From positions 2,578,409 through 2,642,408 of the forward strand of contig OZ243935.1 of assembly GCA_965214045.1 (NCBI GenBank): a stretch of DNA of 64,000 nt, given 5' to 3'. Both the position numbers and the translations under genes were made by a program. Under the pieces are notes generated by a model that did no database searches, was not told where the DNA came from, and worked only from the letters and a program-made list of their open reading frames with translations. The stretch comes from Candidatus Poribacteria bacterium (GTDB lineage Bacteria > Poribacteria > WGA-4E > WGA-3G). Below, piece after piece: positions 11,344 to 58,290 of the stretch; within the stretch, counting starts at the first letter, position 1; every line of letters starts with the position of its first letter.

Positions 11344-13062
11344 GTGAGCATAATGATAGACCTGAGTAATGTGCTGAGAGCTTCAGCGAACGTTCCAGTG
11401 CAGGCACATTGGGATCCAATCGAGAATACAGCGAATAACTTGCATCGATCGACAAAAGAGAAGTTTAATCGAGCCAAGGCACAGTGGAAAGAACCGATAG
11501 ATATGACATGGGAACAGTGGTTGGAGGTGTTCAATCCCGGACCCGCACATGTCCTGAAAAACTACAACACGACGGATTTTCAAGCCTTTCTTCCGCCATC
11601 AACCGTCGACGTGGGAGATGTCTGGGACTTGGATCCGGAAGGGATTCTCCCCTTTCTTTGCCAGTTCCATCCCAGCGCAACAATGAATGTCAAATATGGT
11701 CAGAACGGAGCAAAGGCGTGCTTACGGGCACTTTCGTCTGAATATGCTGACATTGTTTTCCGAATCCATGCGCGCTTCGCACTGGACGCGTCTATTGATG
11801 CCTACTTGATGCCAGCGCAATTTGCTGGACATCTGCTCATCAATCGCAACAGCGGAACGATTTGCCAATTTACGCTATCGCTTCCTAATCGCAATAGTAA
11901 TGTAGATATCGGTGCTTTTAGAACTCATGATATAGGATTTGTCCCTCGCATGGAACTCTACAGTTTATCGGAGATGCAACCAGAATCGATTGTTTGGGAG
12001 GTAGCCATCACGGAGGAAGAAGCCAATAAAAAGTTTCAGAGCGCACTCTACAAGTTTGCTGAAATTGAGTGGACCCCGATTGAAGATGCAGTCGAACTCG
12101 CGAAATCATCGAATCGTCCGATCCATGCGGTCCTCCTATTCGGTGTCCTCGACGATGAATCCTGCTGAGGAACCGGCAAAGCCTTGAGAGCGGGTCCGCT
12201 CTCCTCACCGAAAATTATCAATTTGCTCAACACGTACTTTGTGAACGTCTGGGTTCTGTTCAGAGAGTTGCCCGAGCTACAAACGGGTACCAAAGGGATA
12301 GCAGCGGGTGCCTTGGCAACGCAACTCCGACAACGTTACTCCGATTCTGTGGACAGCCTGACACTCACCGCCGACTTGGAAGTGATTGAACACCTCCCCA
12401 GTAAGAATTTATTTCATCCGGATTATCGCCTACCTCACAGTGAGCGGATACCCCGATATTTGGAGATGCTTAAGTCATCTGTGGGTATGGAAGTTGTGCC
12501 ACAAAAACCGAGGAAATTTGGAAAGCACGATCTATCCCGTAGACTTGCCGAGGCCTATGAAAAATTTGGAAAACCTGCACCTGATTTTTCTGCAACAGAT
12601 ATTGATGGCGAACCCATTTCGCTCCAGCAATATCGTGGGAAAGTCATCCTCCTCGATTTCTGGGCAGTCTGGAGCGGTTTCTGCGTCGGAGAGATGCTGA
12701 AGGTCAAGAAGATATACGATACCTATAAAGATCAGGGATTTGACCTCATCGGAGTCAGCCTCGATACCGATGAAACGAAGTTGCGAAATTACCTTAAGGA
12801 AAATGACATCCTGTGGCGGCAAATTTACACTGGACTGGAACGCCAGAGTCCCCTCGCGCAACAGTATGATGTTCGTTCTATTCCAGCGCGGTGGCTTATC
12901 GATAGGGATGGCACGCTGATCGCCCATGAAGCTACCCACAAGTTGATCTCTCGCAGAGGTAGGGAGGCAGATTTAGAGCAGTTGGTGGCAGAAGCAGTGA
13001 CGAATGAAAAGTCCACGGAATCTGTAAAATCCGCGACAATCCGCGATTCAGACGATTACTAA
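11344..13062 (+). CDS. candidate selenoprotein: unknown N-domain + thioredoxin-like domain with C-U at the redox site + C-terminal TlpA/redoxin-like domain (requires UGA 12166-12168 read as Sec)
   Basis: ORFs 11344..12168 and 12184..13062 share a frame and are separated only by TGA plus 15 open nt. The junction AVLLFGVLDDESC-U-GTGKALRAGPLSSPKIINLLNTYFVNVWV matches a Trx-fold active-site layout. A hairpin lies 18 nt downstream of the TGA. The start may be the ATG at 11353. Confidence 0.55.
12186..12203 (+). promoter_or_regulatory. SECIS-like hairpin downstream of UGA 12166
   Basis: GAGAGCG-GGTC-CGCTCTC. The loop G residues lie 27-28 nt after the U of UGA. Confidence 0.45.
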
Positions 13063-13146: not shown

Positions 13147-13971
13147 TTGAAATTCGGTGTATCCACTTATTCTTATTGGCATTTCAAACCTGAACGCGTG
13201 CCGATTGAGCACGTCATTGAGGAAGCCGCACGGCTCGACCTCGACGGCGTTGAAATCTTACATCAACAGATGGCATCGGAAGCGAATCCGTATCTCCAGA
13301 AACTGAAAAGGCTCGCTTTCATTCATGGACTCGATTTATACGCACTCTCCATCCATCAAGGCTTCGTTTCGCCAGACGCGGCAACACGGCAAAAAAATAT
13401 TAATCACACGATCCACTGCATCCGATTAGCACACGAACTCGGTATCCCCTCAATTCGCCTCAACTCAGGACGATGGGGCACTGTCCCCTCTTTCGATGAA
13501 TTAATGAAAACCGAAGGGCAAGAACCCGCACTCCCCGGACACACAGAAAACGAGGCGTTTGAATGGGTAATTGCTGCCATCGAAAATTGTCTCCCGGATG
13601 CTGAAAAATACGGAGTCGTTCTCGGACTCGAGAACCATTGGGGACTGACATGCACGCCTGAAGGTGTCAATCGTATCGTCTCTGCTATCGACTCAGACTG
13701 GCTGAAGGTGACAATGGATTGCGGGAATTTCCTGTCAGATCCATACCAAAAACTGGAACAGATTGCAGATGAAGCAGTGCTTGTCCATGCGAAGACTTAT
13801 TACGGTGGTGGTGAATGGTATACGTTAGATTTGGATTATGCTAAAATTGGGAACATTCTAAAAGATACCGGATTTCAGGGGTACGTATCCATTGAATTTG
13901 AAGGGAAAGCCGAGGCACACATCGGTGTTCCACAGAGTGTAGCAATGCTTCGCGACGCTCTTCCCCATTAA
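13147..13971 (+). CDS. xylose-isomerase-like TIM-barrel protein
   Basis: TTG start with GAGGTGA SD. Sequence KFGVSTYSYWHF...LDLDGVEILH...GLENHWGLT. Confidence 0.85.
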   Translation: MKFGVSTYSYWHFKPERVPIEHVIEEAARLDLDGVEILHQQMASEANPYLQKLKRLAFIHGLDLYALSIHQGFVSPDAATRQKNINHTIHCIRLAHELGIPSIRLNSGRWGTVPSFDELMKTEGQEPALPGHTENEAFEWVIAAIENCLPDAEKYGVVLGLENHWGLTCTPEGVNRIVSAIDSDWLKVTMDCGNFLSDPYQKLEQIADEAVLVHAKTYYGGGEWYTLDLDYAKIGNILKDTGFQGYVSIEFEGKAEAHIGVPQSVAMLRDALPH

Positions 13972-20585: not shown

Positions 20586-21686
20586 CTATGCATTTTCCCA
20601 AGGTGCCACATCGCCAACGGGCGGTGGTGTTGGGAAACGGCTCTCGACATCGATAGGTCTCCTCGCATCGGAGGATTCGATGATCCGCTCACACACTTCT
20701 AACGCGTGTCGTGCTTGCGCGCCGTTACAGCGTGGGTTCCGGTCGGATCTGATCGCGTCCGCGAAATCCGCAACGCCTTTGCCCCAATCTAATCCGGTAA
20801 AGGCTTTCGGTGGTGAGGGTTCATCTTGCCACCGGTCCTGCGGGGTGAACTTTTGGATACCGCGCCCATCATCGTGTGCTTGGAGTGAGAACCCGCCTGC
20901 AGTGCCGTGAATTTCGTAGGGCGGAATTCCAGAAGCGACAGTAAAACTGTGATAGATGAGTCCGTGTGCCCCGTTCTGGAACTCAAGCACAGCAAATCCG
21001 TGATCCTTCTCATGGACCTCAAACTCAGTCCCTTTCCGCGGTCCCTGGTGCAGCATCCGTTTTGGGACGGCAACTCGCGCGAAGCCATGCACCGTTTTGA
21101 CCGGGGCGATCATCGTCGTCATCGCCGTGAGCGGGTAAGGCGCGACGTCTCGGAAGGGACCGGCATGCATGATGAAAGCATCTGCGTTCGGGTGCCAGTG
21201 TTCCAAAGGACCCCCGAAATTGCCGATCGCGGAAATCACATCACCGATCTCACCCTCACGAATCCGTTGCCAGACGTTCTGCTGAACGTAGCCGAGAATC
21301 GCCGAGGGTGCGCATGCCAGTTTCAACCCCATTGCTTCCGCCGTTTCTACCAGTTCATTTGCCTCATCGGTTCGGATAGAAATCGGCTTTTCAGAGTAAA
21401 CGTGTTTCCCTGCTTTCAGTGCCGCTAATGAAACCGGATAGTGCGAGATGTGAATCGTCAAATTCACAATCGCCTCTATGTTTGGATCGTTCAGCACTTC
21501 CTCAAGGGATTTGTAGACGTGTCCGCCGTTGCGTTCCGCCAATGCTGAGGCGCGTTCCGCATCTTGATCATAGTAGCCAGCCAATTCAATACGATTCGGG
21601 TACGCTTGGCAACGCGGTTGGTAGCCTCCCGCGGCTATCATACCGCACCCGACAATCACCGTACGGAGTGGAGTCGTATGAGTCAT
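20586..21686 (-). CDS. Gfo/Idh/MocA family oxidoreductase
   Basis: N-terminal Rossmann motif LRTVIVGCGMIAAGGY and EKPISIRTDEA. 366 aa. Confidence 0.9.
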   Translation of the reverse strand: MTHTTPLRTVIVGCGMIAAGGYQPRCQAYPNRIELAGYYDQDAERASALAERNGGHVYKSLEEVLNDPNIEAIVNLTIHISHYPVSLAALKAGKHVYSEKPISIRTDEANELVETAEAMGLKLACAPSAILGYVQQNVWQRIREGEIGDVISAIGNFGGPLEHWHPNADAFIMHAGPFRDVAPYPLTAMTTMIAPVKTVHGFARVAVPKRMLHQGPRKGTEFEVHEKDHGFAVLEFQNGAHGLIYHSFTVASGIPPYEIHGTAGGFSLQAHDDGRGIQKFTPQDRWQDEPSPPKAFTGLDWGKGVADFADAIRSDRNPRCNGAQARHALEVCERIIESSDARRPIDVESRFPTPPPVGDVAPWENA

Positions 21687-29879: not shown

Positions 29880-29880
29880 C

Positions 29881-29985
29881 CATCAGCCATCAGCGGTCAG
29901 CCATCGGCAAGAAACCTATTTACTGGCGGTTTCCGATAGGTGCCAACCATTTCCGCTGTAAGCTGACTGCCGATAGCCGACGGCT
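29881..29985. repeat. heptamer palindromic element (HPE)
   Basis: Left arm CATCAGC CATCAGC GGTCAGC CATCGGC. Core AAGAAACCTATTTACTGGCGG... Right arm GCTGACT GCCGATA GCCGACG GCT. The arms are about 14/17 complementary. Confidence 0.8.
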
Positions 29986-30011
29986 AATAACTATTAAAGG
30001 AGGTGATACAG

Positions 30012-30257
30012 ATGGCTCTCGATTGGAAACCACGGCACCGGGATATGATTATTGGGGATATCCCATGGTTAGCCAGAATCAGTGATAAAGCTAATGCAAA
30101 ACTGCAGGGCATCCTCGGCGAATATATCTACCCGTGACCGCAAGATAAGTCGTTCCTGGAGGAACACGAGATAAGTGCTGAGAAATTCACTGATATGGTG
30201 AAAAATAATCCCTCAGACGAAGAAATGATTGCCGCTATGAAGAAATTGGATAGTTAG
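30012..30257 (+). CDS. candidate selenoprotein, DUF5069-like small protein (81 codons; UGA at codon 42 read as Sec)
   Basis: Not in the ORF track because both halves are under 60 aa. AGGAGGTGA SD 5 nt before the ATG. Sequence MALDWKPRHRDMIIGDIPWLARISDKANAKLQGILGEYIYP-U-PQDKSFLEEHEISAEKFTDMVKNNPSDEEMIAAMKKLDS. U falls where DUF5069 proteins, as I recall them, have the Cys of GEY.Y.CP.D. Confidence 0.55.
30152..30165 (+). promoter_or_regulatory. SECIS-like hairpin downstream of UGA 30135
   Basis: GTTCC-TGGA-GGAAC, extendable by C51:G68 and T50:A69 with a 2-nt bulge. The loop G residues lie 23-24 nt after the U of UGA. Confidence 0.4.
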
Positions 30258-30263
30258 TTTAAT

Positions 30264-30395
30264 AGGGCTTACGCACTTCCCTGGTAGGTGCGGAATGTAA
30301 TACGAGGAATGGATTTGGTCTATTCCCAGACCAAATCCCCCAACCGCACCGAATGCGTCCAAATAGATGAAATTTACTGATTTTGCGTAAGTCCT
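30264..30395. mobile_element. MITE-B copy 1 (132 bp)
   Basis: Terminal inverted repeat AGG(G/A)CTTACGCA...TGCGTAAGTCCT. Flanking direct repeat GTTTAAT(AG). Three mismatches to the copy at 61111-61242. Nested inverted repeats GGTGCGG/CCGCACC and GGATTTGGTCT/AGACCAAATCC. Confidence 0.8.
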
Positions 30396-30402
30396 GTTTA
30401 AT

Positions 30403-30461
30403 AGCAGTCAGTGGTCAGCGATTAGCAAACCCCGCTTTGCTGCTGGCAGCTGACTGCCATT
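30403..30461. repeat. heptamer palindromic element (short core)
   Basis: AGCAGTC AGTGGTC AGCGATT AGC - AAACCCCGCTTT - GCTGCTGGCAGCTGACTGCCATT. Confidence 0.75.
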
Positions 30462-30557
30462 AACACTGGAATCTATTTTGGCGGGTTAAAATGTAGGAGC
30501 GACCTGTAGTTCGCGTCGAACACGGAAACCTTTATTGCACAGATCGTGATACTTATC

Positions 30558-38355: not shown

Positions 38356-39384
38356 CTATACAATTGGGACGGAACGACCTATCCTTGCCGATTCATAGAG
38401 CGCATCGAAGATTTTCGCAATGTTCAACACCTCTTCAGCAGGGACAGGGGACAACAATCCTTCTCGGATAGCCGTATGGAACGATTCAAATTCACTCGGT
38501 AATCCTGTGAGCAATTTTGGCGCGTAATTCACCATCTCATCTTTTTTATCCAGATAAATCTGAAGCGGTTCATAAGTCGCACCGGCTAAGTCTCCCATGA
38601 AAAACGTCCCGCCGATGTTTTCGATATGCGATGCCCACGCCGTTTCCAAGGTCACCGTCAATCCGCCCTCAAAGCGGATAGTCCCCATCGCGAAATCTTC
38701 CACCTCAAAATCTTCAGGATTCCATTTACCCCACGGGTTGATGACATTCTCTTTGTGTCCAAACTTCGTTGCCGTCATTCCGAACGCCTCAATGGGTTTC
38801 GGAGAACCGATCATCCAGAGCAACACATCGAGGATATGCACGCCGATATCAATGAGCGGTCCGCCACCTGCGATGGCTTTACTCAGAAAAGACGGTGAAG
38901 CAGGCACCCCACGCCGTCGTACTGACATTGCGCGGGCATAATAGATGTCCCCAAAGAAACCTTCATCATAGAGTTTACGTAGGGTGCGCGCCTCCGCACG
39001 GAATCGGGATTGTAACCCAATCTGTAGGATTTTACCGCTCGCCTTTTGCGCGTCCACCATTGCTTGTCCGTCAATAGCGTTCGCAGCAATCGGTTTTTCA
39101 CAGATAACATGTTTTCCGGCGTTCAACGCTGCAATAGTGGGTCCGGCGTGGAAGTTATTCGGCGTGCAAACGCTCACCGCATCCAGTTCATCCATCGCCG
39201 CCAATTCCTCGTAATCACTGAAAACGTGCGGAATGTCGTGTTTTTTAGCGAACGCTTTCGCACGGGTTTCGTCGATGTCGCACGCGGCGATAATCGAAAC
39301 ACCCTTGACACTTTTATGGCCCGGAAGGTGTTTACCACCAGCAATGCCACCGCACCCAACTATACCTACCTTAATTTCTTTCAT
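38356..39384 (-). CDS. Gfo/Idh/MocA family oxidoreductase
   Basis: I prefer ATG 39384 (MKEIKVGIVGCGGIAGGKH), which is preceded by AAGGAG. Also EKPIAANAIDG. Confidence 0.9.
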   Translation of the reverse strand: MKEIKVGIVGCGGIAGGKHLPGHKSVKGVSIIAACDIDETRAKAFAKKHDIPHVFSDYEELAAMDELDAVSVCTPNNFHAGPTIAALNAGKHVICEKPIAANAIDGQAMVDAQKASGKILQIGLQSRFRAEARTLRKLYDEGFFGDIYYARAMSVRRRGVPASPSFLSKAIAGGGPLIDIGVHILDVLLWMIGSPKPIEAFGMTATKFGHKENVINPWGKWNPEDFEVEDFAMGTIRFEGGLTVTLETAWASHIENIGGTFFMGDLAGATYEPLQIYLDKKDEMVNYAPKLLTGLPSEFESFHTAIREGLLSPVPAEEVLNIAKIFDALYESARIGRSVPIV

Positions 39385-39406
39385 TGTTAACTCCTTTTCG
39401 CTTATT

Positions 39407-40255
39407 TTAGATTGGCACAACTTGTGGGGCTTGTTCCAAGTTCAGATTGTGCGCTGCTGCCCATTCCGAACCTGCCCAGTGTACGCCGTTCGGGTCGCGC
39501 CTGCCTTGTGTGTCTGTAGATGCCCCGAGAAACTGCCTGCCGAGATCGTTTAAGTTTTCCACCAGTGGTTCATCCGGTTGTAGGCTATCGTTGTAATAGC
39601 GCAGATAATAATCCGGCTTAATCCAGCGATAATGGTACCCATAGATGATAACCTTAGAGATAGTCTCTCTGAAATTCAGTCCCGCGGCATGATAGATACG
39701 GCTTTCAAACAGAAATGCATCTCCTGCGCGGAGGAGCGGTTCGTCATACACAAGTGGATCCACTTCACCTTCAGGAATGCCCAACGGCTCACTCAGTTTG
39801 TGGCTCTTTCGGATAAACCACGTCGCGCCTGAGTTCGGTATACTGAAATCCGTTAAGCAGTAGCCTACCTTCAAACCGACGCGCGGGCAACCTGCGTGCC
39901 CAACGTCCAAATGCACACCGACATCTCGATGCCAATTGCGGTTGTCAGGTTTTTCAGGTGCCTGTGGGTGTTTGTAGATAAGTGCTGTGTTCGTGATATG
40001 GATATTTGTACCGAGCAGTTGCAGAATCAATGGCACTGCTTTCGACTGTGTCGCAAGGTCAGCGAATGCGAGTTCTTGTACCAACCCGTCCCGCCGATGT
40101 GCGTAATAGTCGTGGTACTCAAACGATTCCATGAGTCGGTCACCTGTCTCGGTCAGACGTTGAATCATCTCACTGTCAATTGCTGAGCGCACGATGAGGT
40201 AACCGTTCTCTTCAAATTCTTGGCGTTGTGTCTTTGTCAACTGAACAAATTCCAT
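39407..40255 (-). CDS. phytanoyl-CoA dioxygenase (PhyH) family protein
   Basis: MEFVQLTKTQRQEFEENGYLIVRSAI... and WHRD. Close paralogue of 48393..49208. Confidence 0.85.
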   Translation of the reverse strand: MEFVQLTKTQRQEFEENGYLIVRSAIDSEMIQRLTETGDRLMESFEYHDYYAHRRDGLVQELAFADLATQSKAVPLILQLLGTNIHITNTALIYKHPQAPEKPDNRNWHRDVGVHLDVGHAGCPRVGLKVGYCLTDFSIPNSGATWFIRKSHKLSEPLGIPEGEVDPLVYDEPLLRAGDAFLFESRIYHAAGLNFRETISKVIIYGYHYRWIKPDYYLRYYNDSLQPDEPLVENLNDLGRQFLGASTDTQGRRDPNGVHWAGSEWAAAHNLNLEQAPQVVPI

Positions 40256-55468: not shown

Positions 55469-56569
55469 ATGCTGCGTATATGTACATGTCTGACGCTCTT
55501 ACTTTCGATAATCGGTTGTAAATCGCAAACTTTGCAAGAACATCTTTTAGAACCACCACCACCGCTCATCAATTTTGCGCTGAGCCGAAATGGGGCAATC
55601 GCGGATGCTTCACAGTCCGTTCCAAACCATCGCGCAGCAGAGATAATCGATGGTGATACTAACTCTGAGACGTGGGATGAAGGCAGTGGATGGGGGAGTA
55701 GTTTAGAGCATCTGCGGACCTCAGATCTTAACAAGCGTTCTTATGTATCCGTGACGCTCGCTAAACCGGTCGATATTCGTAAAATTGTTATGTGGACGAT
55801 CGACTCCGAGAAATATCCAGCACCACGATTTGGGTTGAAGGACTATCGGATTGAGTATTGGCACGGCACCGGTTGGGGACTTATTCCATCGGGCGATACG
55901 AAAGACAAGCAGTATACAGCGCGAGATAATACCAAAGGTAAACGGGTTCATGAAGTCCGCCAGCGCCTAATAGCGAGCAAGGTCCGGCTCGTTCCTGTTT
56001 CCTCGAATGATACGGTCCGCAATTACCAACACATGGCAGGCAAGCGACCTGTATATGAGGTGGAAGGCACTGCACGAGTTATGGAATTGGAAATTTGGGG
56101 GTATGCCGCACCGGAAGTGCATACACTCAAACAGATTGCACAAGGGATCCCGCCAGAATCAATGGCGCATCCTGTAGCAACAGAGACACAGAAAGGTGAA
56201 AATCAAACCGAACCGACGATCAAAGAGATTATTCAGCGCGTCTTAAACCGATATGAACTCGGATACGACATGGCGGACCTAACGGAGGTTATGTCCTGTT
56301 TTTCAGAGGCGTATCACTCCAATGGTCGCACCTATCAAGACGTTAAAACAAAGGCATCCGAGTTTTTTGAAGTTTATCATCAGATTGATATGACACTGAC
56401 CAACATTGACATCCATCCGAACATAGTTGATGATACGGCGATTGTAACGGGTGGCTACACGTTGCAATATGCCCCGAAAGTGAACGGTCAGGTTGAGCAG
56501 ACATCTGGCAAATTGACGTTGGTTTTCGCGAATGAAGCGGAAACATGGCGCATTATCCGGGCAGAATAA
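55469..56569 (+). CDS. lipoprotein with galactose-binding-like (F5/8 type C-like) and C-terminal NTF2/SnoaL-like domains
   Basis: AAGGAGG SD and lipobox LSIIGCKS. The C-terminal LNRYELGYDMADLTEVMSCFSEAYHSNG...ETWRIIRAE looks NTF2-like. Confidence 0.65.
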   Translation: MLRICTCLTLLLSIIGCKSQTLQEHLLEPPPPLINFALSRNGAIADASQSVPNHRAAEIIDGDTNSETWDEGSGWGSSLEHLRTSDLNKRSYVSVTLAKPVDIRKIVMWTIDSEKYPAPRFGLKDYRIEYWHGTGWGLIPSGDTKDKQYTARDNTKGKRVHEVRQRLIASKVRLVPVSSNDTVRNYQHMAGKRPVYEVEGTARVMELEIWGYAAPEVHTLKQIAQGIPPESMAHPVATETQKGENQTEPTIKEIIQRVLNRYELGYDMADLTEVMSCFSEAYHSNGRTYQDVKTKASEFFEVYHQIDMTLTNIDIHPNIVDDTAIVTGGYTLQYAPKVNGQVEQTSGKLTLVFANEAETWRIIRAE

Positions 56570-56606
56570 CCCACGATTTCAAACTGCGGCGACAAAGGAT
56601 CTGAAA

Positions 56607-57431
56607 ATGGTACAAGAGCAGTCCAATCTTTGGGCAAAATCATACATCAGTGATGGATATTTACTGCTTCCAGATATCATTACACTGGAAGAATGTAATG
56701 ACCTGAAAGCAGAAATGCTAAAAATCTTTCGTGGAGATTACCGCTGTGAGGCGATCCCACCGATGCCGGAAACGGCAAGCGAAATGGAAATTTTGGATAG
56801 AATCATGTGTGTTGGCGAACCACATGTCTTTAGTCCCTTAATTCGGCGTTATATTGAACATCCAAAAATCTGTGAAGTCCTTCGGACGATTGTTGGGGCA
56901 CACATCCCATTTTGGGAGGGTGGTGTGAAATGTATGCAGTCGATGATGTTGAGCAAAGTGCCGGGACATACGGGGAACCCATGGCATCAGGACGAACACC
57001 CGATTCCGACGCGTGATCGATCGCTGCTCGGTGTGTGGATTACATTAGATGATGCCACAGTTGAAAACGGTTGTCTCTGGGTTTTACCCGATAGCCACCG
57101 CTCTGGTGTAATTTATGACCGTTTCCCACACGACAAACGCCATGAATTCGACAGTTGTCACGAAGCAGCCGGGTTTGATGACACCGGCGAAATCCCGATT
57201 GAGATGGCAGCCGGTAGCGTTCTCTTTTTCAACGGTTACCTTTTACACCGTTCCAAGAAGAATCGGAGCGATACATTTCGGCGTATCCTTGTGAGCCACT
57301 ATTGCTCAACAGCGTCGTGGTTAGGCTGGAAGGGACAACGGAATTATCGCGGGGTTGTTACCGTCGCAGGCGAAGATCCTTACATTGACGAAGGCTATGC
57401 CACACCAAATACCTGGGCACGATGGGAGTAG
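56607..57431 (+). CDS. phytanoyl-CoA dioxygenase (PhyH) family protein
   Basis: I prefer ATG 56607 (AAGGA SD). Motifs PWHQDE, LWVLPDSH and LLHRS. Confidence 0.85.
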   Translation: MVQEQSNLWAKSYISDGYLLLPDIITLEECNDLKAEMLKIFRGDYRCEAIPPMPETASEMEILDRIMCVGEPHVFSPLIRRYIEHPKICEVLRTIVGAHIPFWEGGVKCMQSMMLSKVPGHTGNPWHQDEHPIPTRDRSLLGVWITLDDATVENGCLWVLPDSHRSGVIYDRFPHDKRHEFDSCHEAAGFDDTGEIPIEMAAGSVLFFNGYLLHRSKKNRSDTFRRILVSHYCSTASWLGWKGQRNYRGVVTVAGEDPYIDEGYATPNTWARWE

Positions 57432-57442
57432 TCTAAACAACG

Positions 57443-57474
57443 CACCTGACCGAACCGCAAGGAAAGTTAAAAAT
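57443..57474 (+). promoter_or_regulatory. Box B copy
   Basis: CACCTGACCGAACCGCAAGGAAAGTTAAAAAT followed by ATG 57475. Confidence 0.55.
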
Positions 57475-58290
57475 ATGAAACTGACAGAACATCAAGTGAA
57501 TTTTTTCAATACTTTCGGCTATCTCGCAATACCAGGCATGTTTTCCCCAAGCGAGGTAGAATGGATAATCGAAGAATTTGAGGTATCGATTCAGGAATTT
57601 GGAGGCGGCAAAAATCATGATGGCACAAGCCGCACAATGTTCGGCGGTCCGATAGAGCATCGCCCTCGACTCTGTACCCTCCTTGATGATGAACGAGTTA
57701 AAGGACTCATCGGTGGTGTGATCGGTGAAGACTTCAACTACGCTGGGGGCGATGGGAACTATTACACCGGCGATACCGGCTGGCATCCTGATGGAAGCTG
57801 GGGACGCCTCTTCGCTTGTAAGGTGGCATTTTATCTCGATCCTTTGACGAAAGACACAGGCTGCTTACGGATCATTCCCGGTAGCCAGAATCCGGCGCAC
57901 TTCGTCAGAGCCGGAAAAATCGATCCAAATCAATCAGAGACGTTATACGGTATACCGCCGCGCGATTTTCCAACCAGTGTTGCATTGGAGAACACACCCG
58001 GCGATGTCGTGATTTTCAACCACGACACCTATCACGCAGCATTTGGTGGTGGGACCCGGAGACGGATGTTCACCATGAATTGCACACAACATTGTACGAC
58101 CGAGCCAGATTTAGAGACGCTTCATCAGTACTTGAGTGTCCATTCAGCAGGTGGATATAAAATTGAGACAGGCGCGGGTATGTTTTTCCCAACGATGGTT
58201 GACACTGCGGACGCAAAACGACAAATCCATCTCCAGCAATGTAGTAATATCCATGACGAATTGTTTCCGCAATACGCTCGACGGTCTTAG
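57475..58290 (+). CDS. phytanoyl-CoA dioxygenase (PhyH) family protein
   Basis: I prefer ATG 57475 (MKLTEHQVNFFNTFGYLAIPGMF), directly after Box B. ORF-track start 57355 overlaps the previous gene. Motifs GWHPD and TYHAA. Confidence 0.85.
   Translation: MKLTEHQVNFFNTFGYLAIPGMFSPSEVEWIIEEFEVSIQEFGGGKNHDGTSRTMFGGPIEHRPRLCTLLDDERVKGLIGGVIGEDFNYAGGDGNYYTGDTGWHPDGSWGRLFACKVAFYLDPLTKDTGCLRIIPGSQNPAHFVRAGKIDPNQSETLYGIPPRDFPTSVALENTPGDVVIFNHDTYHAAFGGGTRRRMFTMNCTQHCTTEPDLETLHQYLSVHSAGGYKIETGAGMFFPTMVDTADAKRQIHLQQCSNIHDELFPQYARRS

What the first reader, a model, noticed from the sequence alone, without database searches (positions are those of the whole stretch)
30012..30257. Hidden 81-codon DUF5069-like gene with UGA at the conserved Cys position: second selenoprotein candidate
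Neither half reaches the 60-aa ORF-track cutoff. A strong SD (AAGGAGGTGA) lies 5 nt before ATG 30012. The translation is MALDWKPRHRDMIIGDIPWLARISDKANAKLQGILGEYIYP-[TGA 30135-30137]-PQDKSFLEEHEISAEKFTDMVKNNPSDEEMIAAMKKLDS-TAG. As I recall DUF5069 proteins, they carry ...R.iDKaRa...G.LGEY.Y.CP.D..F..f.gi....f...v....sDeE. The UGA therefore falls exactly on the invariant Cys, and similarity continues on both sides of it. A hairpin GTTCC-TGGA-GGAAC (30152-30165) puts its loop G residues 23-24 nt after the UGA. Two independent Cys-position UGAs, each with a hairpin, in one 64-kb window support each other.
Basis: partly seen in the sequence, partly recalled or inferred. Interest (0 to 1): 0.85.

Follow-up and report, generated by a model that had tools for sequence, protein, structure and literature searches.

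The report
New selenoprotein gene, DUF5069 family
A small 81-codon gene in this sponge-symbiont (Poribacteria) genome contains an internal UGA "stop" that is almost certainly read as the rare amino acid selenocysteine, so databases that list it as a 41-residue fragment are wrong and a family of unknown function gains a likely catalytic residue.

Summary

The window is from Candidatus Poribacteria, a sponge symbiont. All 80 species-representative Poribacteria genomes retrieved keep TGA at this codon. The frame is kept and the 39-residue tail is under purifying selection (pN/pS 0.17; 0.02 for the four codons right after UGA).

With U replaced by C, the protein matches Pfam DUF5069 on both sides of the UGA (53 bits). 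In homologues that column is mostly Cys (68%), so "invariant" is an overstatement.

The four codons inside the hairpin (UGUUCC-UGGA-GGAACA, loop 19 nt after UGA) are frozen at synonymous sites. Sec forms from Chloroflexota, Planctomycetota and unassigned lineages have a hairpin at the same distance, with different stems and G in the first two loop positions; four of five carry GG at +24 to +26. This fits the published bacterial SECIS model.

No sel genes lie in the window. Published COG tables list SelA, SelB and SelD in three Poribacteria genomes.

A second conserved C-UGA gene with a GGUC-loop hairpin lies at 11344-13062.

DUF5069 is absent from the 2026 selenoprotein catalogue.

Verdict: a real, uncatalogued selenoprotein family that uses the canonical mechanism.

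The parts
29997..30006 (+). Shine-Dalgarno sequence AAGGAGGTGA, 5 nt upstream of the start codon
   Evidence: Read directly from the sequence. AGGAGGTGA followed by 4-6 nt and ATG is conserved upstream of the orthologues.
30012..30257 (+). 81-codon coding sequence (plus TAG stop) of a DUF5069-family protein, with codon 42 = UGA read through (MALDWKPRHRDMIIGDIPWLARISDKANAKLQGILGEYIYP-U-PQDKSFLEEHEISAEKFTDMVKNNPSDEEMIAAMKKLDS)
   Evidence: Translation. Pfam PF16798 53.1 bits across both halves. pN/pS is 0.079 before and 0.166 after the UGA, against 1.5-2.1 when the tail is read in the other frames. 82 of 82 orthologues have the same architecture.
30135..30137 (+). In-frame UGA, predicted selenocysteine codon (residue 42, motif Y-P-U-P-x-D)
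   Evidence: TGA in 82 of 82 sequences. The aligned column is Cys in 106 of 156 informative family instances. The Cys-form homologue uses TGT. Codons 43-46 vary almost only synonymously (pN/pS 0.017).
30151..30166 (+). Predicted bacterial SECIS hairpin. The consensus is UGUUCC-UGGA-GGAACA (6 bp, 4-nt loop). In this window the outermost pair is a C-A mismatch, leaving GUUCC-UGGA-GGAAC. The loop starts 19 nt after the UGA, with G at loop positions 2-3.
   Evidence: RNAalifold consensus: 6 pairs, and the only 3 substitutions among 83 sequences are wobble-compatible. Synonymous sites are frozen: TTC 82/82, CTG 81/82, GAG 82/82, GAA 80/82. A run of 4 such codons has permutation P = 0.0055. The hairpin is in the MFE structure of 80 of 83 sequences, and the MFE of UGA+47 nt is at or below -7.5 kcal/mol in 99%. 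Divergent lineages show covariation. It fits the bSECIS model in PMC13188914.
30255..30257 (+). True stop codon (TAG)
   Evidence: Orthologues end at the same codon with TAG (44), TAA (36) or TGA (1).

Best explanation
Window 30012-30257 is one gene. It encodes an 81-residue DUF5069-family selenoprotein of a Candidatus Poribacteria bacterium.

Proposed mechanism (inferred): translation starts at ATG 30012, behind a strong SD. At UGA 30135 the ribosome does not terminate. A small hairpin lies 14-29 nt downstream, with its apical loop UGGA at +23 to +26 counted from the U of UGA. It acts as a bacterial SECIS element and recruits SelB-GTP-Sec-tRNA(Sec), which inserts selenocysteine. Translation then continues for 39 more codons to TAG 30255.

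The Sec replaces the family's predominant Cys in the motif Y-P-[C/U]-P-x-D. In the structure model this residue sits directly before an alpha-helix. It is the only Cys or Sec in the protein.

Proposed function (inferred, low confidence): a small helical one-residue selenol redox protein. It would form a transient selenenyl-sulfide with a partner or a low-molecular-weight thiol, possibly in peroxide or thiol-redox metabolism.

What is shown: the conserved UGA, translation of the tail in frame, the Cys/UGA pairing, and the RNA-level constraint and covariation of the hairpin.

What is inferred: involvement of SelB and tRNA(Sec), the identity of the inserted residue, and the biochemical role.
For: 1. 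The UGA is conserved. 82 of 82 distinct sequences, including 80 GTDB species representatives of Poribacteria, carry it at codon 42. Synonymous sites elsewhere are near saturation (pS about 0.6).

2. The tail is translated in frame 0. pN/pS is 0.166 overall and 0.017 for codons 43-46, which lie between the UGA and any possible restart. The same tail read in the other two frames gives 1.53 and 2.07. The window has no start codon at codon 47 (TCG).

3. There is a Cys/UGA pair in the family. Pfam DUF5069 scores 53 bits across the UGA. Cys occupies the column in 106 of 156 informative instances. P0010 uses TGT. PDB 3OMD aligns Cys there.

4. The hairpin fits the SECIS model. It has a 6-bp stem and a 4-nt loop UGGA with G at position 2 followed by G. 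There are 19 nt between the UGA and the loop. MFE is at or below -7.5 kcal/mol in 99% of orthologues. These are the constraints listed in PMC13188914. The four codons inside it are frozen at synonymous sites. Codon 47 is always NTG although the amino acid varies among M, L and V.

5. Divergent Sec forms keep the same layout: TGA, an in-frame tail, and a hairpin at the same distance.
   - Chloroflexota (L090): stem GCUC/GAGC, loop GGU.
   - Planctomycetota (L093): loop AGUCCC, G at position 2.
   - L089: stem CGGUUUCU/AGAAGCCG, loop GGA.
   - L094: stem CGCUUCC/GGGAGCG, loop UGGA.
   - L092: the Poribacteria core hairpin.
   Four of the five have GG at +24 to +26. Four of 7 pairs change on both sides. 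The covariation score is 0.292 against 0.155 for shuffles (0 of 500 reach it).

6. The Cys form encodes F-L-E as TTT CTC GAG, without this hairpin.

7. TGA is an ordinary stop for 8 of 34 long ORFs in the window, so the genetic code is not reassigned.

8. Sec machinery is reported in the phylum. Slaby et al. 2017 Table S4 lists SelA/SelB/SelD counts of 2/1/1, 4/1/2 and 2/1/1 for Poribacteria bin70, bin44 and WGA-3G. A Sec-type hydrogenase has been reported from a Poribacteria MAG.

9. A second conserved C-UGA gene in the same window carries the hairpin GAGAGCG-GGUC-CGCUCUC.
Against: - No selA, selB, selD or tRNA(Sec) lies in the 64-kb window. The genome itself could not be searched.
- On a single sequence the hairpin is short (-5.8 kcal/mol alone) and not distinguishable from shuffles (z = +0.66).
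- Within Poribacteria the hairpin is invariant, so covariation comes only from a handful of distant lineages. Two of those fold in a shifted register.
- No Rfam family matches.
- There is no protein-level or selenium-labelling evidence.
- The 3' arm contains GGAGG, an SD-like motif that could contribute to its conservation.
- Function is unknown. The only fold match is the uncharacterised 3OMD.
Confidence: 0.85

Rival explanations
1. The UGA is recoded through the same SECIS and SelB route, but as cysteine. This would use a tRNA(ReC)/SelC*-type tRNA, so the mature protein carries Cys and not Sec.
For: PMC13582414 notes that tRNA(ReC) decodes UGA as Cys when a SECIS lies downstream, and that bioinformatics cannot separate the two outcomes. 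The family residue at this position is Cys.
Against: tRNA(ReC) is reported for a minority of genomes (about 13-17% in that data set). Nothing suggests it occurs in Poribacteria. A TGA fixed in 80 of 80 species, when TGT or TGC would give Cys without special machinery, is hard to explain unless Sec is advantageous.
Confidence: 0.06
2. Read-through is independent of SECIS. A near-cognate tRNA (Trp, Cys or Arg) reads the weak terminator UGA-C at low efficiency, and the hairpin only slows the ribosome or stimulates read-through.
For: The base after the UGA is C in all 82 Poribacteria sequences. From my own knowledge, UGA-C is the weakest E. coli termination context. The hairpin is small.
Against: The UGA pairs with Cys across the family. 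G in the first two loop positions at a fixed distance is kept across phyla while the stems change. SelA, SelB and SelD occur in the phylum. A second gene in the window follows the same C-UGA plus GGUC-loop pattern. In L092 and L094 the base after UGA is G, so the context is not conserved.
Confidence: 0.05
3. The UGA is a genuine stop. The product would be a 41-residue peptide, as NCBI annotates it. The downstream 39 codons would then be a separate small gene, a decaying remnant, or conserved for a non-coding reason.
For: NCBI and IMG list 41-aa 'DUF5069 domain-containing protein' entries for Poribacteria. Codon 47 is ATG, TTG, CTG or GTG in 81 of 82 sequences.
Against: Codons 43-46, upstream of any restart, vary almost only synonymously (pN/pS 0.017). 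The whole tail shows a frame-0 coding signature. The window has TCG at codon 47, so no start is available. No SD precedes codon 47. The tail aligns to the second half of the DUF5069 domain and to 3OMD. A remnant would not survive intact in 80 species at pS about 0.6.
Confidence: 0.02
4. The TGA is a sequencing or assembly error, or a strain-specific nonsense mutation (a pseudogene).
For: None beyond the bare presence of a stop codon.
Against: The same codon appears in 80 independently assembled species-level genomes and several metagenome contigs.
Confidence: 0.01

Closest known systems
Canonical bacterial selenoprotein genes with a bSECIS directly downstream of UGA (E. coli fdhF is the paradigm; bSECIS consensus model of Zhang and Gladyshev as summarised in PMC13188914)
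   Same: An in-frame UGA sits at a position where homologues have Cys. The hairpin begins about 14 nt after the UGA. [quoted passage not shown] From my own knowledge, the loop position (+23 to +26) nearly coincides with the fdhF loop GGUC at +22 to +25.
   Different: The protein family is different. The hairpin is minimal (6 bp, no clear lower stem or bulged U). There is no experimental evidence, and the sel genes were not verified in this genome.
Pfam PF16798 (DUF5069), Cys-containing members, and PDB 3OMD (uncharacterised protein from Leptospirillum rubarum)
   Same: Significant sequence match (53 bits to Pfam; E 4.2e-14 to 3OMD). Shared motifs R-I-x-DK-A-x-A, G-x-x-G-E-Y-x-Y-P-[C/U]-P-x-D and P-x-D-x-E. 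The predicted helical fold superposes on 3OMD (TM 0.68 normalised to the query).
   Different: UGA (Sec) replaces Cys. The protein is short (81 aa) and covers only profile positions 4-75 of 133. Public annotation truncates it to 41 aa.
Catalogued prokaryotic selenoprotein families (tables in PMC9312934, 2022, and PMC13188914, 2026; NCBIfam selenoprotein models)
   Same: It was found by the same logic as most catalogued families: a Cys/UGA pair plus a bSECIS-like hairpin plus TGA-containing orthologues. Like many of them it is a small protein, probably redox-active, with one Sec.
   Different: Neither DUF5069 nor PF16798 appears in either catalogue, or anywhere in the searchable literature. No NCBIfam model hits the protein.
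tRNA(ReC)/SelC*-mediated UGA-to-Cys recoding (Vargas-Rodriguez et al. 2018, as cited in PMC13582414)
   Same: It would use the same UGA plus SECIS arrangement.
   Different: It would insert Cys, not Sec. There is no evidence for such a tRNA in Poribacteria, and this could not be tested here.

Membership tests
Pfam PF16798 (DUF5069) | Whole-protein HMM score above the curated gathering threshold (27 bits) | tested here: met
   53.1 bits, E 4.7e-14, with U replaced by C. Residues 7-78 match profile positions 4-75. Each half alone scores 18-21 bits.
Pfam PF16798 (DUF5069) | Coverage of the full 133-position domain model | tested here: not met
   Only profile positions 4-75 are present, because the protein ends at residue 81. 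Other short members of 81-93 aa exist, so this is a short form of the family, not a non-member.
Pfam PF16798 (DUF5069) | Same fold as the family's solved structure (3OMD) | tested here: met
   The profile of A1 hits 3omd_A at E 4.2e-14. The AF2 model of the Cys-form homologue P0010 (pLDDT 74.8) matches 3omd_A by Foldseek with probability 1.00, TM 0.68 and rmsd 2.9 over 73 columns. The model is of the homologue, not of the window protein itself.
Bacterial selenoprotein (SelB/SECIS-dependent Sec insertion) | In-frame UGA conserved among orthologues, with coding signal continuing downstream in the same frame | tested here: met
   TGA in 82 of 82 sequences. Tail pN/pS is 0.166 (0.017 for codons 43-46) against 1.5-2.1 in the other frames. 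The same holds in Chloroflexota, Planctomycetota and other lineages.
Bacterial selenoprotein (SelB/SECIS-dependent Sec insertion) | Homologues carry Cys at the position of the UGA | tested here: met
   Cys in 106 of 156 informative aligned domain instances and Ser in 29, mostly in tandem-repeat proteins. P0010 uses TGT. 3OMD has Cys.
Bacterial selenoprotein (SelB/SECIS-dependent Sec insertion) | bSECIS: 3-9 nt apical loop, 4-16 bp upper stem, G in the first two loop positions, 16-37 nt between UGA and loop, MFE at or below -7.5 kcal/mol (model quoted) | tested here: met
   The loop is UGGA (4 nt, G at position 2 followed by G). The stem is 6 bp (5 bp in the window). The spacing is 19 nt. MFE of UGA+47 nt averages -11.2 and is at or below -7.5 in 99% of 83 sequences. 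The hairpin alone is only -5.8. The bSECISearch program itself was not available.
Bacterial selenoprotein (SelB/SECIS-dependent Sec insertion) | RNA-level selection or covariation supporting the hairpin | tested here: met
   Synonymous sites of codons 48-51 are frozen (permutation P = 0.0055). All 3 substitutions within Poribacteria are wobble-compatible. Across lineages, 4 of 7 pairs change on both sides, and the covariation score is 0.292 against 0.155 for shuffles (0 of 500) and above every slid register.
Bacterial selenoprotein (SelB/SECIS-dependent Sec insertion) | selA, selB, selC (tRNA-Sec) and selD present in the same genome | not testable with these tools
   None of them lies in the 64-kb window. 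Indirect support: COG1921, COG3276 and COG0709 are present in Poribacteria bin70, bin44 and WGA-3G in Slaby 2017 Table S4. A Sec-type hydrogenase is reported from a Poribacteria MAG. tRNA-Sec was not documented.
Bacterial selenoprotein (SelB/SECIS-dependent Sec insertion) | Selenium detected in the protein (75Se labelling or mass spectrometry) | not testable with these tools
   This needs an experiment.
Alternative genetic code (UGA = Trp or Gly, tables 4 and 25) | UGA not used as a terminator in the genome | tested here: not met
   8 of 34 ORFs of at least 250 aa in the window end in TGA. The 'W' in database proteins P0001-P0009 and P0017 comes from table-4 gene calls on short contigs: L002 has TGA where P0001 has W.

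The most novel reading that the evidence does not exclude
DUF5069 is an uncatalogued selenoprotein family spanning several phyla and fixed across Poribacteria (80 of 80 species). Its single Sec would be the catalytic residue of a new kind of small helical one-selenol redox module. That module would work with peroxiredoxin-type or thiol-redox partners; in a Planctomycetota MAG the gene sits 135 nt downstream of a Sec-containing PrxQ-type peroxiredoxin. Its 16-nt hairpin would be among the smallest natural SECIS elements.
Probability: 0.25. Interest if true: 0.6.

Novelty: new member of a known kind. Interest (0 to 1): 0.5.

Why it matters
- **Annotation.** NCBI and IMG record this gene as a 41-residue fragment, or as a 'W'-containing table-4 artefact, in hundreds of contigs. 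The correct product is an 81-residue selenoprotein.
- **Catalogue.** It adds a family to the prokaryotic selenoproteome. The family is absent from the 2022 and 2026 catalogues and has no NCBIfam model.
- **Function of a DUF.** Sec marks the Y-P-C-P-x-D cysteine of DUF5069 as a probable redox-active catalytic residue. That gives a testable handle on a family that has a solved structure (3OMD) but no known function.
- **Sponge symbionts.** TGA at this codon in 80 of 80 Poribacteria species, together with a second selenoprotein gene 18 kb away, indicates that selenium use is a stable trait of these symbionts. This agrees with the reported enrichment of SelA and SelB in sponge-symbiont genomes.
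- **Mechanism.** The recoding mechanism is the canonical one, so this extends known biology and is not a new principle.

Tried and rejected
- **Single-sequence folding** of 30135-30200 gave MFE -9.7 and z = +0.66, which is uninformative.
- **Rfam** gave nothing at gathering thresholds on the whole window. A permissive scan of 30090-30270 gave only one chance snoRNA hit.
- **tRNA and sel genes in the window.** ARAGORN found no tRNA. Pfam scans of 30 window ORFs found no sel genes.
- **NCBIfam** has no model that hits the protein.
- **Cyanobacterial origin.** My first guess, based on the neighbouring genes, was wrong. The genome scan shows Poribacteria.
- **Code reassignment** was rejected: TGA is a normal stop in the window, and the 'W' proteins are gene-caller artefacts.
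- **Split gene or re-initiation at codon 47** was rejected. Codons 43-46 are under protein-level selection, and the window has TCG at codon 47.
- **Internal SD (GGAGG) as the reason for conservation** was rejected as the sole cause. It cannot explain the frozen TTC codon or the NTG pattern in the 5' arm, and no usable start codon follows.
- **A lower SECIS stem** involving CCG-CAA and the frozen codon 56 (GCT) was considered. One partner varies (CCG or CCA), so it remains unproven.
- **Foldseek against the PDB** returned only 3OMD, so the fold gives no functional inference.
- **Fusion partners** of DUF5069 are heterogeneous: AI-2E transporter, methyltransferase, cupin, dienelactone hydrolase, DUF2249.
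- **The supplement of PMC13582414**, which might list selABCD for a Poribacteria MAG, is not held.
- **Finding a Poribacteria SelB directly.** I saw no way to do this with the remaining search quotas.
Full report
**1. The observation**

- AAGGAGGTGA lies at 29997-30006, followed by 5 nt and ATG 30012.
- There are 41 sense codons, then TGA at 30135-30137, then 39 more sense codons, then TAG at 30255-30257.
- The inverted repeat GTTCC-TGGA-GGAAC occupies 30152-30165.
- Mechanical ORF listing gives 44 aa (from GTG 30003) before the TGA and nothing of 60 aa or more, so the gene is invisible to a 60-aa ORF filter.

**2. Family assignment**

With U replaced by C, the 81-residue product hits Pfam PF16798 (DUF5069) at 53.1 bits (E 4.7e-14, curated cut-off 27). 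The match covers residues 7-78, which correspond to profile positions 4-75 of 133. [quoted passage not shown] NCBIfam has no matching model.

A profile of the protein and its homologues hits one solved structure, 3OMD. This is an uncharacterised protein from Leptospirillum rubarum (E 4.2e-14). Its sequence ...GEYTYNCPLDQAFF... places Cys at the UGA column.

**3. Organism and conservation of the UGA**

A protein-database search returned two kinds of relatives:
- Full-length 81-residue proteins with 'W' at the UGA position.
- N-terminal halves ending ...EYIYP.

The DNA shows that the 'W' proteins are table-4 gene calls on short contigs. L002 has TGA where P0001 has W.

A scan of one genome per GTDB species returned 213 relatives. 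The best 80 are all Candidatus Poribacteria MAGs, at 79-98% identity to the window protein, and many are closed chromosomes. The window is therefore from a poribacterial sponge symbiont.

All 80, plus two metagenome contigs and the window (82 distinct sequences), have TGA at codon 42. The reading frame and length are preserved, and the final stop falls at the same place. Synteny is also conserved: UPF0182, then this gene, then pheA, then queG.

**4. Is the tail translated?**

Pairwise Nei-Gojobori counts over the 82 sequences:

| Region | pS | pN/pS |
|---|---|---|
| Codons 2-41 (before UGA) | 0.61 | 0.079 |
| Codons 43-81 (after UGA) | 0.59 | 0.166 |
| Tail (codons 53-80) read in frame +1 | | 1.53 |
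| Tail (codons 53-80) read in frame +2 | | 2.07 |

The four codons directly after the UGA (P-Q-D-K) are the most telling (pN/pS 0.017). They vary almost only synonymously:
- CCG 58 / CCA 23
- CAA 43 / CAG 36
- GAT 57 / GAC 25
- AAA 41 / AAG 38

These codons lie upstream of any conceivable restart, so ribosomes must read through the UGA. Codon 47 is ATG, TTG, CTG or GTG in the orthologues but TCG in this window. Re-initiation therefore cannot explain the window gene.

TGA terminates 8 of 34 long ORFs in the window, so the genetic code is standard.

**5. The Cys/UGA pair**

An exhaustive HMMER search with the Cys-form homologue P0010 found 337 family members at E up to 0.001. I aligned 184 domain instances. 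The UGA column holds:

| Residue at the UGA column | Instances |
|---|---|
| Cys | 106 |
| Ser (mostly tandem-repeat proteins with a G-x-x-S variant) | 29 |
| 'W' (table-4 calls) | 10 |
| Protein ends exactly before the column | 18 |
| Other residues | 21 |

**6. The SECIS question**

On the single window sequence the hairpin is unremarkable: MFE -9.7 kcal/mol for 66 nt, z = +0.66. No Rfam family matches. Comparative data change the picture.

*Within Poribacteria:*
- The four codons inside the hairpin are frozen at synonymous sites: TTC 82/82, CTG 81/82, GAG 82/82, GAA 80/82. Other Phe and Glu codons in the same gene split about 50:50.
- A run of four such codons has permutation P = 0.0055.
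- Codon 47 is always NTG, although its amino acid varies (M, L, V).
- RNAalifold gives a 6-bp stem UGUUCC/GGAACA with loop UGGA. The only three substitutions among 83 sequences are wobble-compatible.
- The hairpin is in the MFE structure of 80 of 83 sequences. The MFE of UGA+47 nt averages -11.2 kcal/mol and is at or below -7.5 in 99%.

*Against the published model.* The bSECIS model quoted in the 2026 review requires a 3-9 nt loop, a 4-16 bp stem, G in the first two loop positions (usually G[G|U]), 16-37 nt between UGA and loop, and MFE at or below -7.5. All of these are met: loop UGGA, 6 bp, 19 nt spacing.

*The SD-like motif.* The 3' arm contains GGAGG. This cannot explain the frozen 5' arm, and no usable start codon follows it.

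*Covariation from outside the Poribacteria clade.* Several representative-search hits that end in ...Y-x-Y-P come from other lineages. Their DNA shows TGA at the same codon, a conserved in-frame tail, and a hairpin at the same distance with different stems:

| Locus | Lineage | GC | Stem | Loop |
|---|---|---|---|---|
| L090/L091 | Chloroflexota (MDP6348439.1) | 63-68% | GGGU-GCUC / GAGC-uu-GCCC | GGU |
| L093 | Planctomycetota (MBI3268973.1) | 69% | not transcribed | AGUCCC |
| L089 | unassigned | 55% | CGGUUUCU / AGAAGCCG | GGA |
| L094 | unassigned | 62% | CGCUUCC / GGGAGCG | UGGA |
| L092 | unassigned | 47% | AGUUCC / GGAACU | UGGA |

In four of the five, GG sits at +24 to +26 from the U of UGA. 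In L093 the G is at loop position 2.

On a 19-sequence alignment, 4 of 7 pairs show changes on both sides. The covariation score is 0.292 against 0.155 for shuffles (0 of 500 reach it), and it exceeds every slid register.

The one Cys form examined (TGT) encodes F-L-E as TTT CTC GAG and lacks this hairpin.

**7. Sec machinery**

The window has no tRNA and no sel gene among 30 ORFs scanned. I could not search the rest of the genome. Published data fill part of the gap:
- Slaby et al. 2017 report that SelA and SelB co-occur in most sponge-symbiont bins.
- Their Table S4 gives COG1921/COG3276/COG0709 (SelA/SelB/SelD) counts of 2/1/1 for bin70, 4/1/2 for bin44 and 2/1/1 for Ca. Poribacteria WGA-3G. 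Bin70 and bin44 are Poribacteria.
- A 2026 survey lists Poribacteria among phyla with Sec-type group 4 hydrogenases.

*Internal support.* The other in-frame TGA in the window (12166-12168, inside 11344-13062, motif ...LDDES-C-U-G-T-G-K...) is conserved in two other Poribacteria. Its frame and downstream residues are kept. It is followed by the hairpin GAGAGCG-GGUC-CGCUCUC, with the loop starting 24 nt after the UGA. Database homologues split exactly at that codon.

**8. What it does**

The mechanism of recoding is the canonical bacterial one. This is inferred but strongly supported.

The biochemical role is unknown:
- The AF2 model of the Cys-form homologue (pLDDT 74.8) is a small helical domain. 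The Cys/Sec residue sits immediately before helix 47-55.
- Foldseek finds only 3OMD.
- The window protein has no other Cys.

My best guess is a one-selenol redox function. Two contextual hints exist, each from one or two loci only:
- In the Planctomycetota MAG the gene lies 135 nt downstream of a PrxQ/BCP-type peroxiredoxin. That gene itself has an in-frame TGA at the peroxidatic position (...AFTGG-U-TAEC...).
- In a Cys-form locus (L003) and the Chloroflexota Sec-form locus (L090), the gene directly follows weakly homologous kinase-like proteins of 340-372 aa (26% identity, E 5e-9).

**9. Rivals**

- SECIS-dependent Cys insertion by a tRNA(ReC) cannot be excluded by sequence. It is less likely given universal TGA retention.
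- SECIS-independent read-through is disfavoured by the conserved loop G, the Cys pairing and the second gene.
- Genuine termination, a pseudogene and an assembly error are contradicted.

**10. Novelty**

- 'DUF5069' and 'PF16798' occur in no paper of the searchable library.
- Neither appears in the 2022 or 2026 catalogues of prokaryotic selenoprotein families.
- NCBI names the Poribacteria products as 41-aa 'DUF5069 domain-containing protein'.

This is a new selenoprotein family found by a well-established logic and using the known mechanism. It is a new member of a known kind. Its interest is moderate: it corrects widespread mis-annotation, flags a catalytic residue in a structurally solved DUF, and documents selenium use fixed across a whole phylum of sponge symbionts. 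It would not surprise a selenoprotein specialist.

Noticed in passing
window 11344-13062 (+); TGA 12166-12168; hairpin 12186-12203: This is a second probable selenoprotein. A 274-aa N-terminal part ends ...VLLFGVLDDES-C-[UGA]-G-T-G-K-A-L-R-A-G-P-L-S-S. It continues in frame into about 297 aa that carry an AhpC-TSA/Redoxin domain. The TGA, the frame and the downstream residues are conserved in two other Poribacteria (L087, L088), and database homologues split exactly at this codon. The hairpin is GAGAGCG-GGUC-CGCUCUC, with its loop starting 24 nt after the UGA. The N-terminal part has no Pfam or NCBIfam hit. A Cys-Sec (CU) dyad is unusual.
   Followed up: partly
L093 9327-9866 (Planctomycetota MAG JACPWG010000049.1): Two adjacent gene calls (70 aa and 102 aa, both AhpC-TSA/Redoxin) are really one PrxQ/BCP-type peroxiredoxin. 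It has an in-frame TGA at the peroxidatic position (...WFPKAFTGG-U-TAECASL...). It lies 135 nt upstream of the Sec-form DUF5069 gene, which may indicate a functional link.
   Followed up: partly
L003 8876-9994 and L090 1957-2979: In two unrelated lineages the DUF5069 gene lies 6-22 nt downstream of weakly homologous proteins of 340-372 aa. L003 is a Cys form in a metagenome at 65.6% GC, and L090 is a Sec form in Chloroflexota. The two upstream proteins share 26% identity (E 5e-9). The L090 protein has faint Bud32-type kinase matches. This pairing is not seen in Poribacteria, where the upstream gene is UPF0182.
   Followed up: partly
window 30177-30179 (codon 56, GCT) and orthologues: Ala codon 56 is GCT in 81 of 82 sequences, and the following GA is invariant (GCUGA). 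It lies outside the hairpin. It may belong to a lower SECIS stem, but the candidate partner (CCG or CCA of codon 43) varies. This remains unexplained.
   Followed up: partly
Protein database entries P0001-P0009, P0017, P0213-P0240: The same gene appears in public collections in two wrong forms. One is a 41-49 aa fragment called with table 11, including NCBI MDP6747439.1, MEE2909937.1 and MCH2575689.1. The other is a full-length protein with Trp at the Sec position, from table-4 calls on short contigs. Table-4 'W' calls are a handy way to spot conserved in-frame UGAs.
   Followed up: yes
window 30311-30338 and 30398-30463; also 29880-29990: The 340-nt spacer between this gene and pheA holds a perfect 11-bp inverted repeat (GGATTTGGTCT-6 nt-AGACCAAATCC) and a 22-nt imperfect one. 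Both flanking spacers contain repeated CAGC/TCAGC-rich motifs (ccatcagccatcagcggtcagccatcggc; gcagtcagtggtcagc...ggcagctgactgcc). No T-tract terminator or sigma-70-like promoter was found.
   Followed up: no
Representative hits P0018, P0022, P0029, P0042 (about 430 aa): Some DUF5069 proteins consist of two or three tandem DUF5069 domains. Most repeats in these proteins have G-x-x-S in place of P-C, which suggests a non-redox or Ser-based variant of the domain.
   Followed up: no
window 38356-40255, 56532-58290, 1484-2248, 13147-13971, 20586-21686: The window is rich in PhyH dioxygenase, GFO/IDH/MocA oxidoreductase and xylose-isomerase-like TIM-barrel genes. This matches the gene families reported as expanded in Poribacteria, and it is consistent with the taxonomic assignment.
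   Followed up: no
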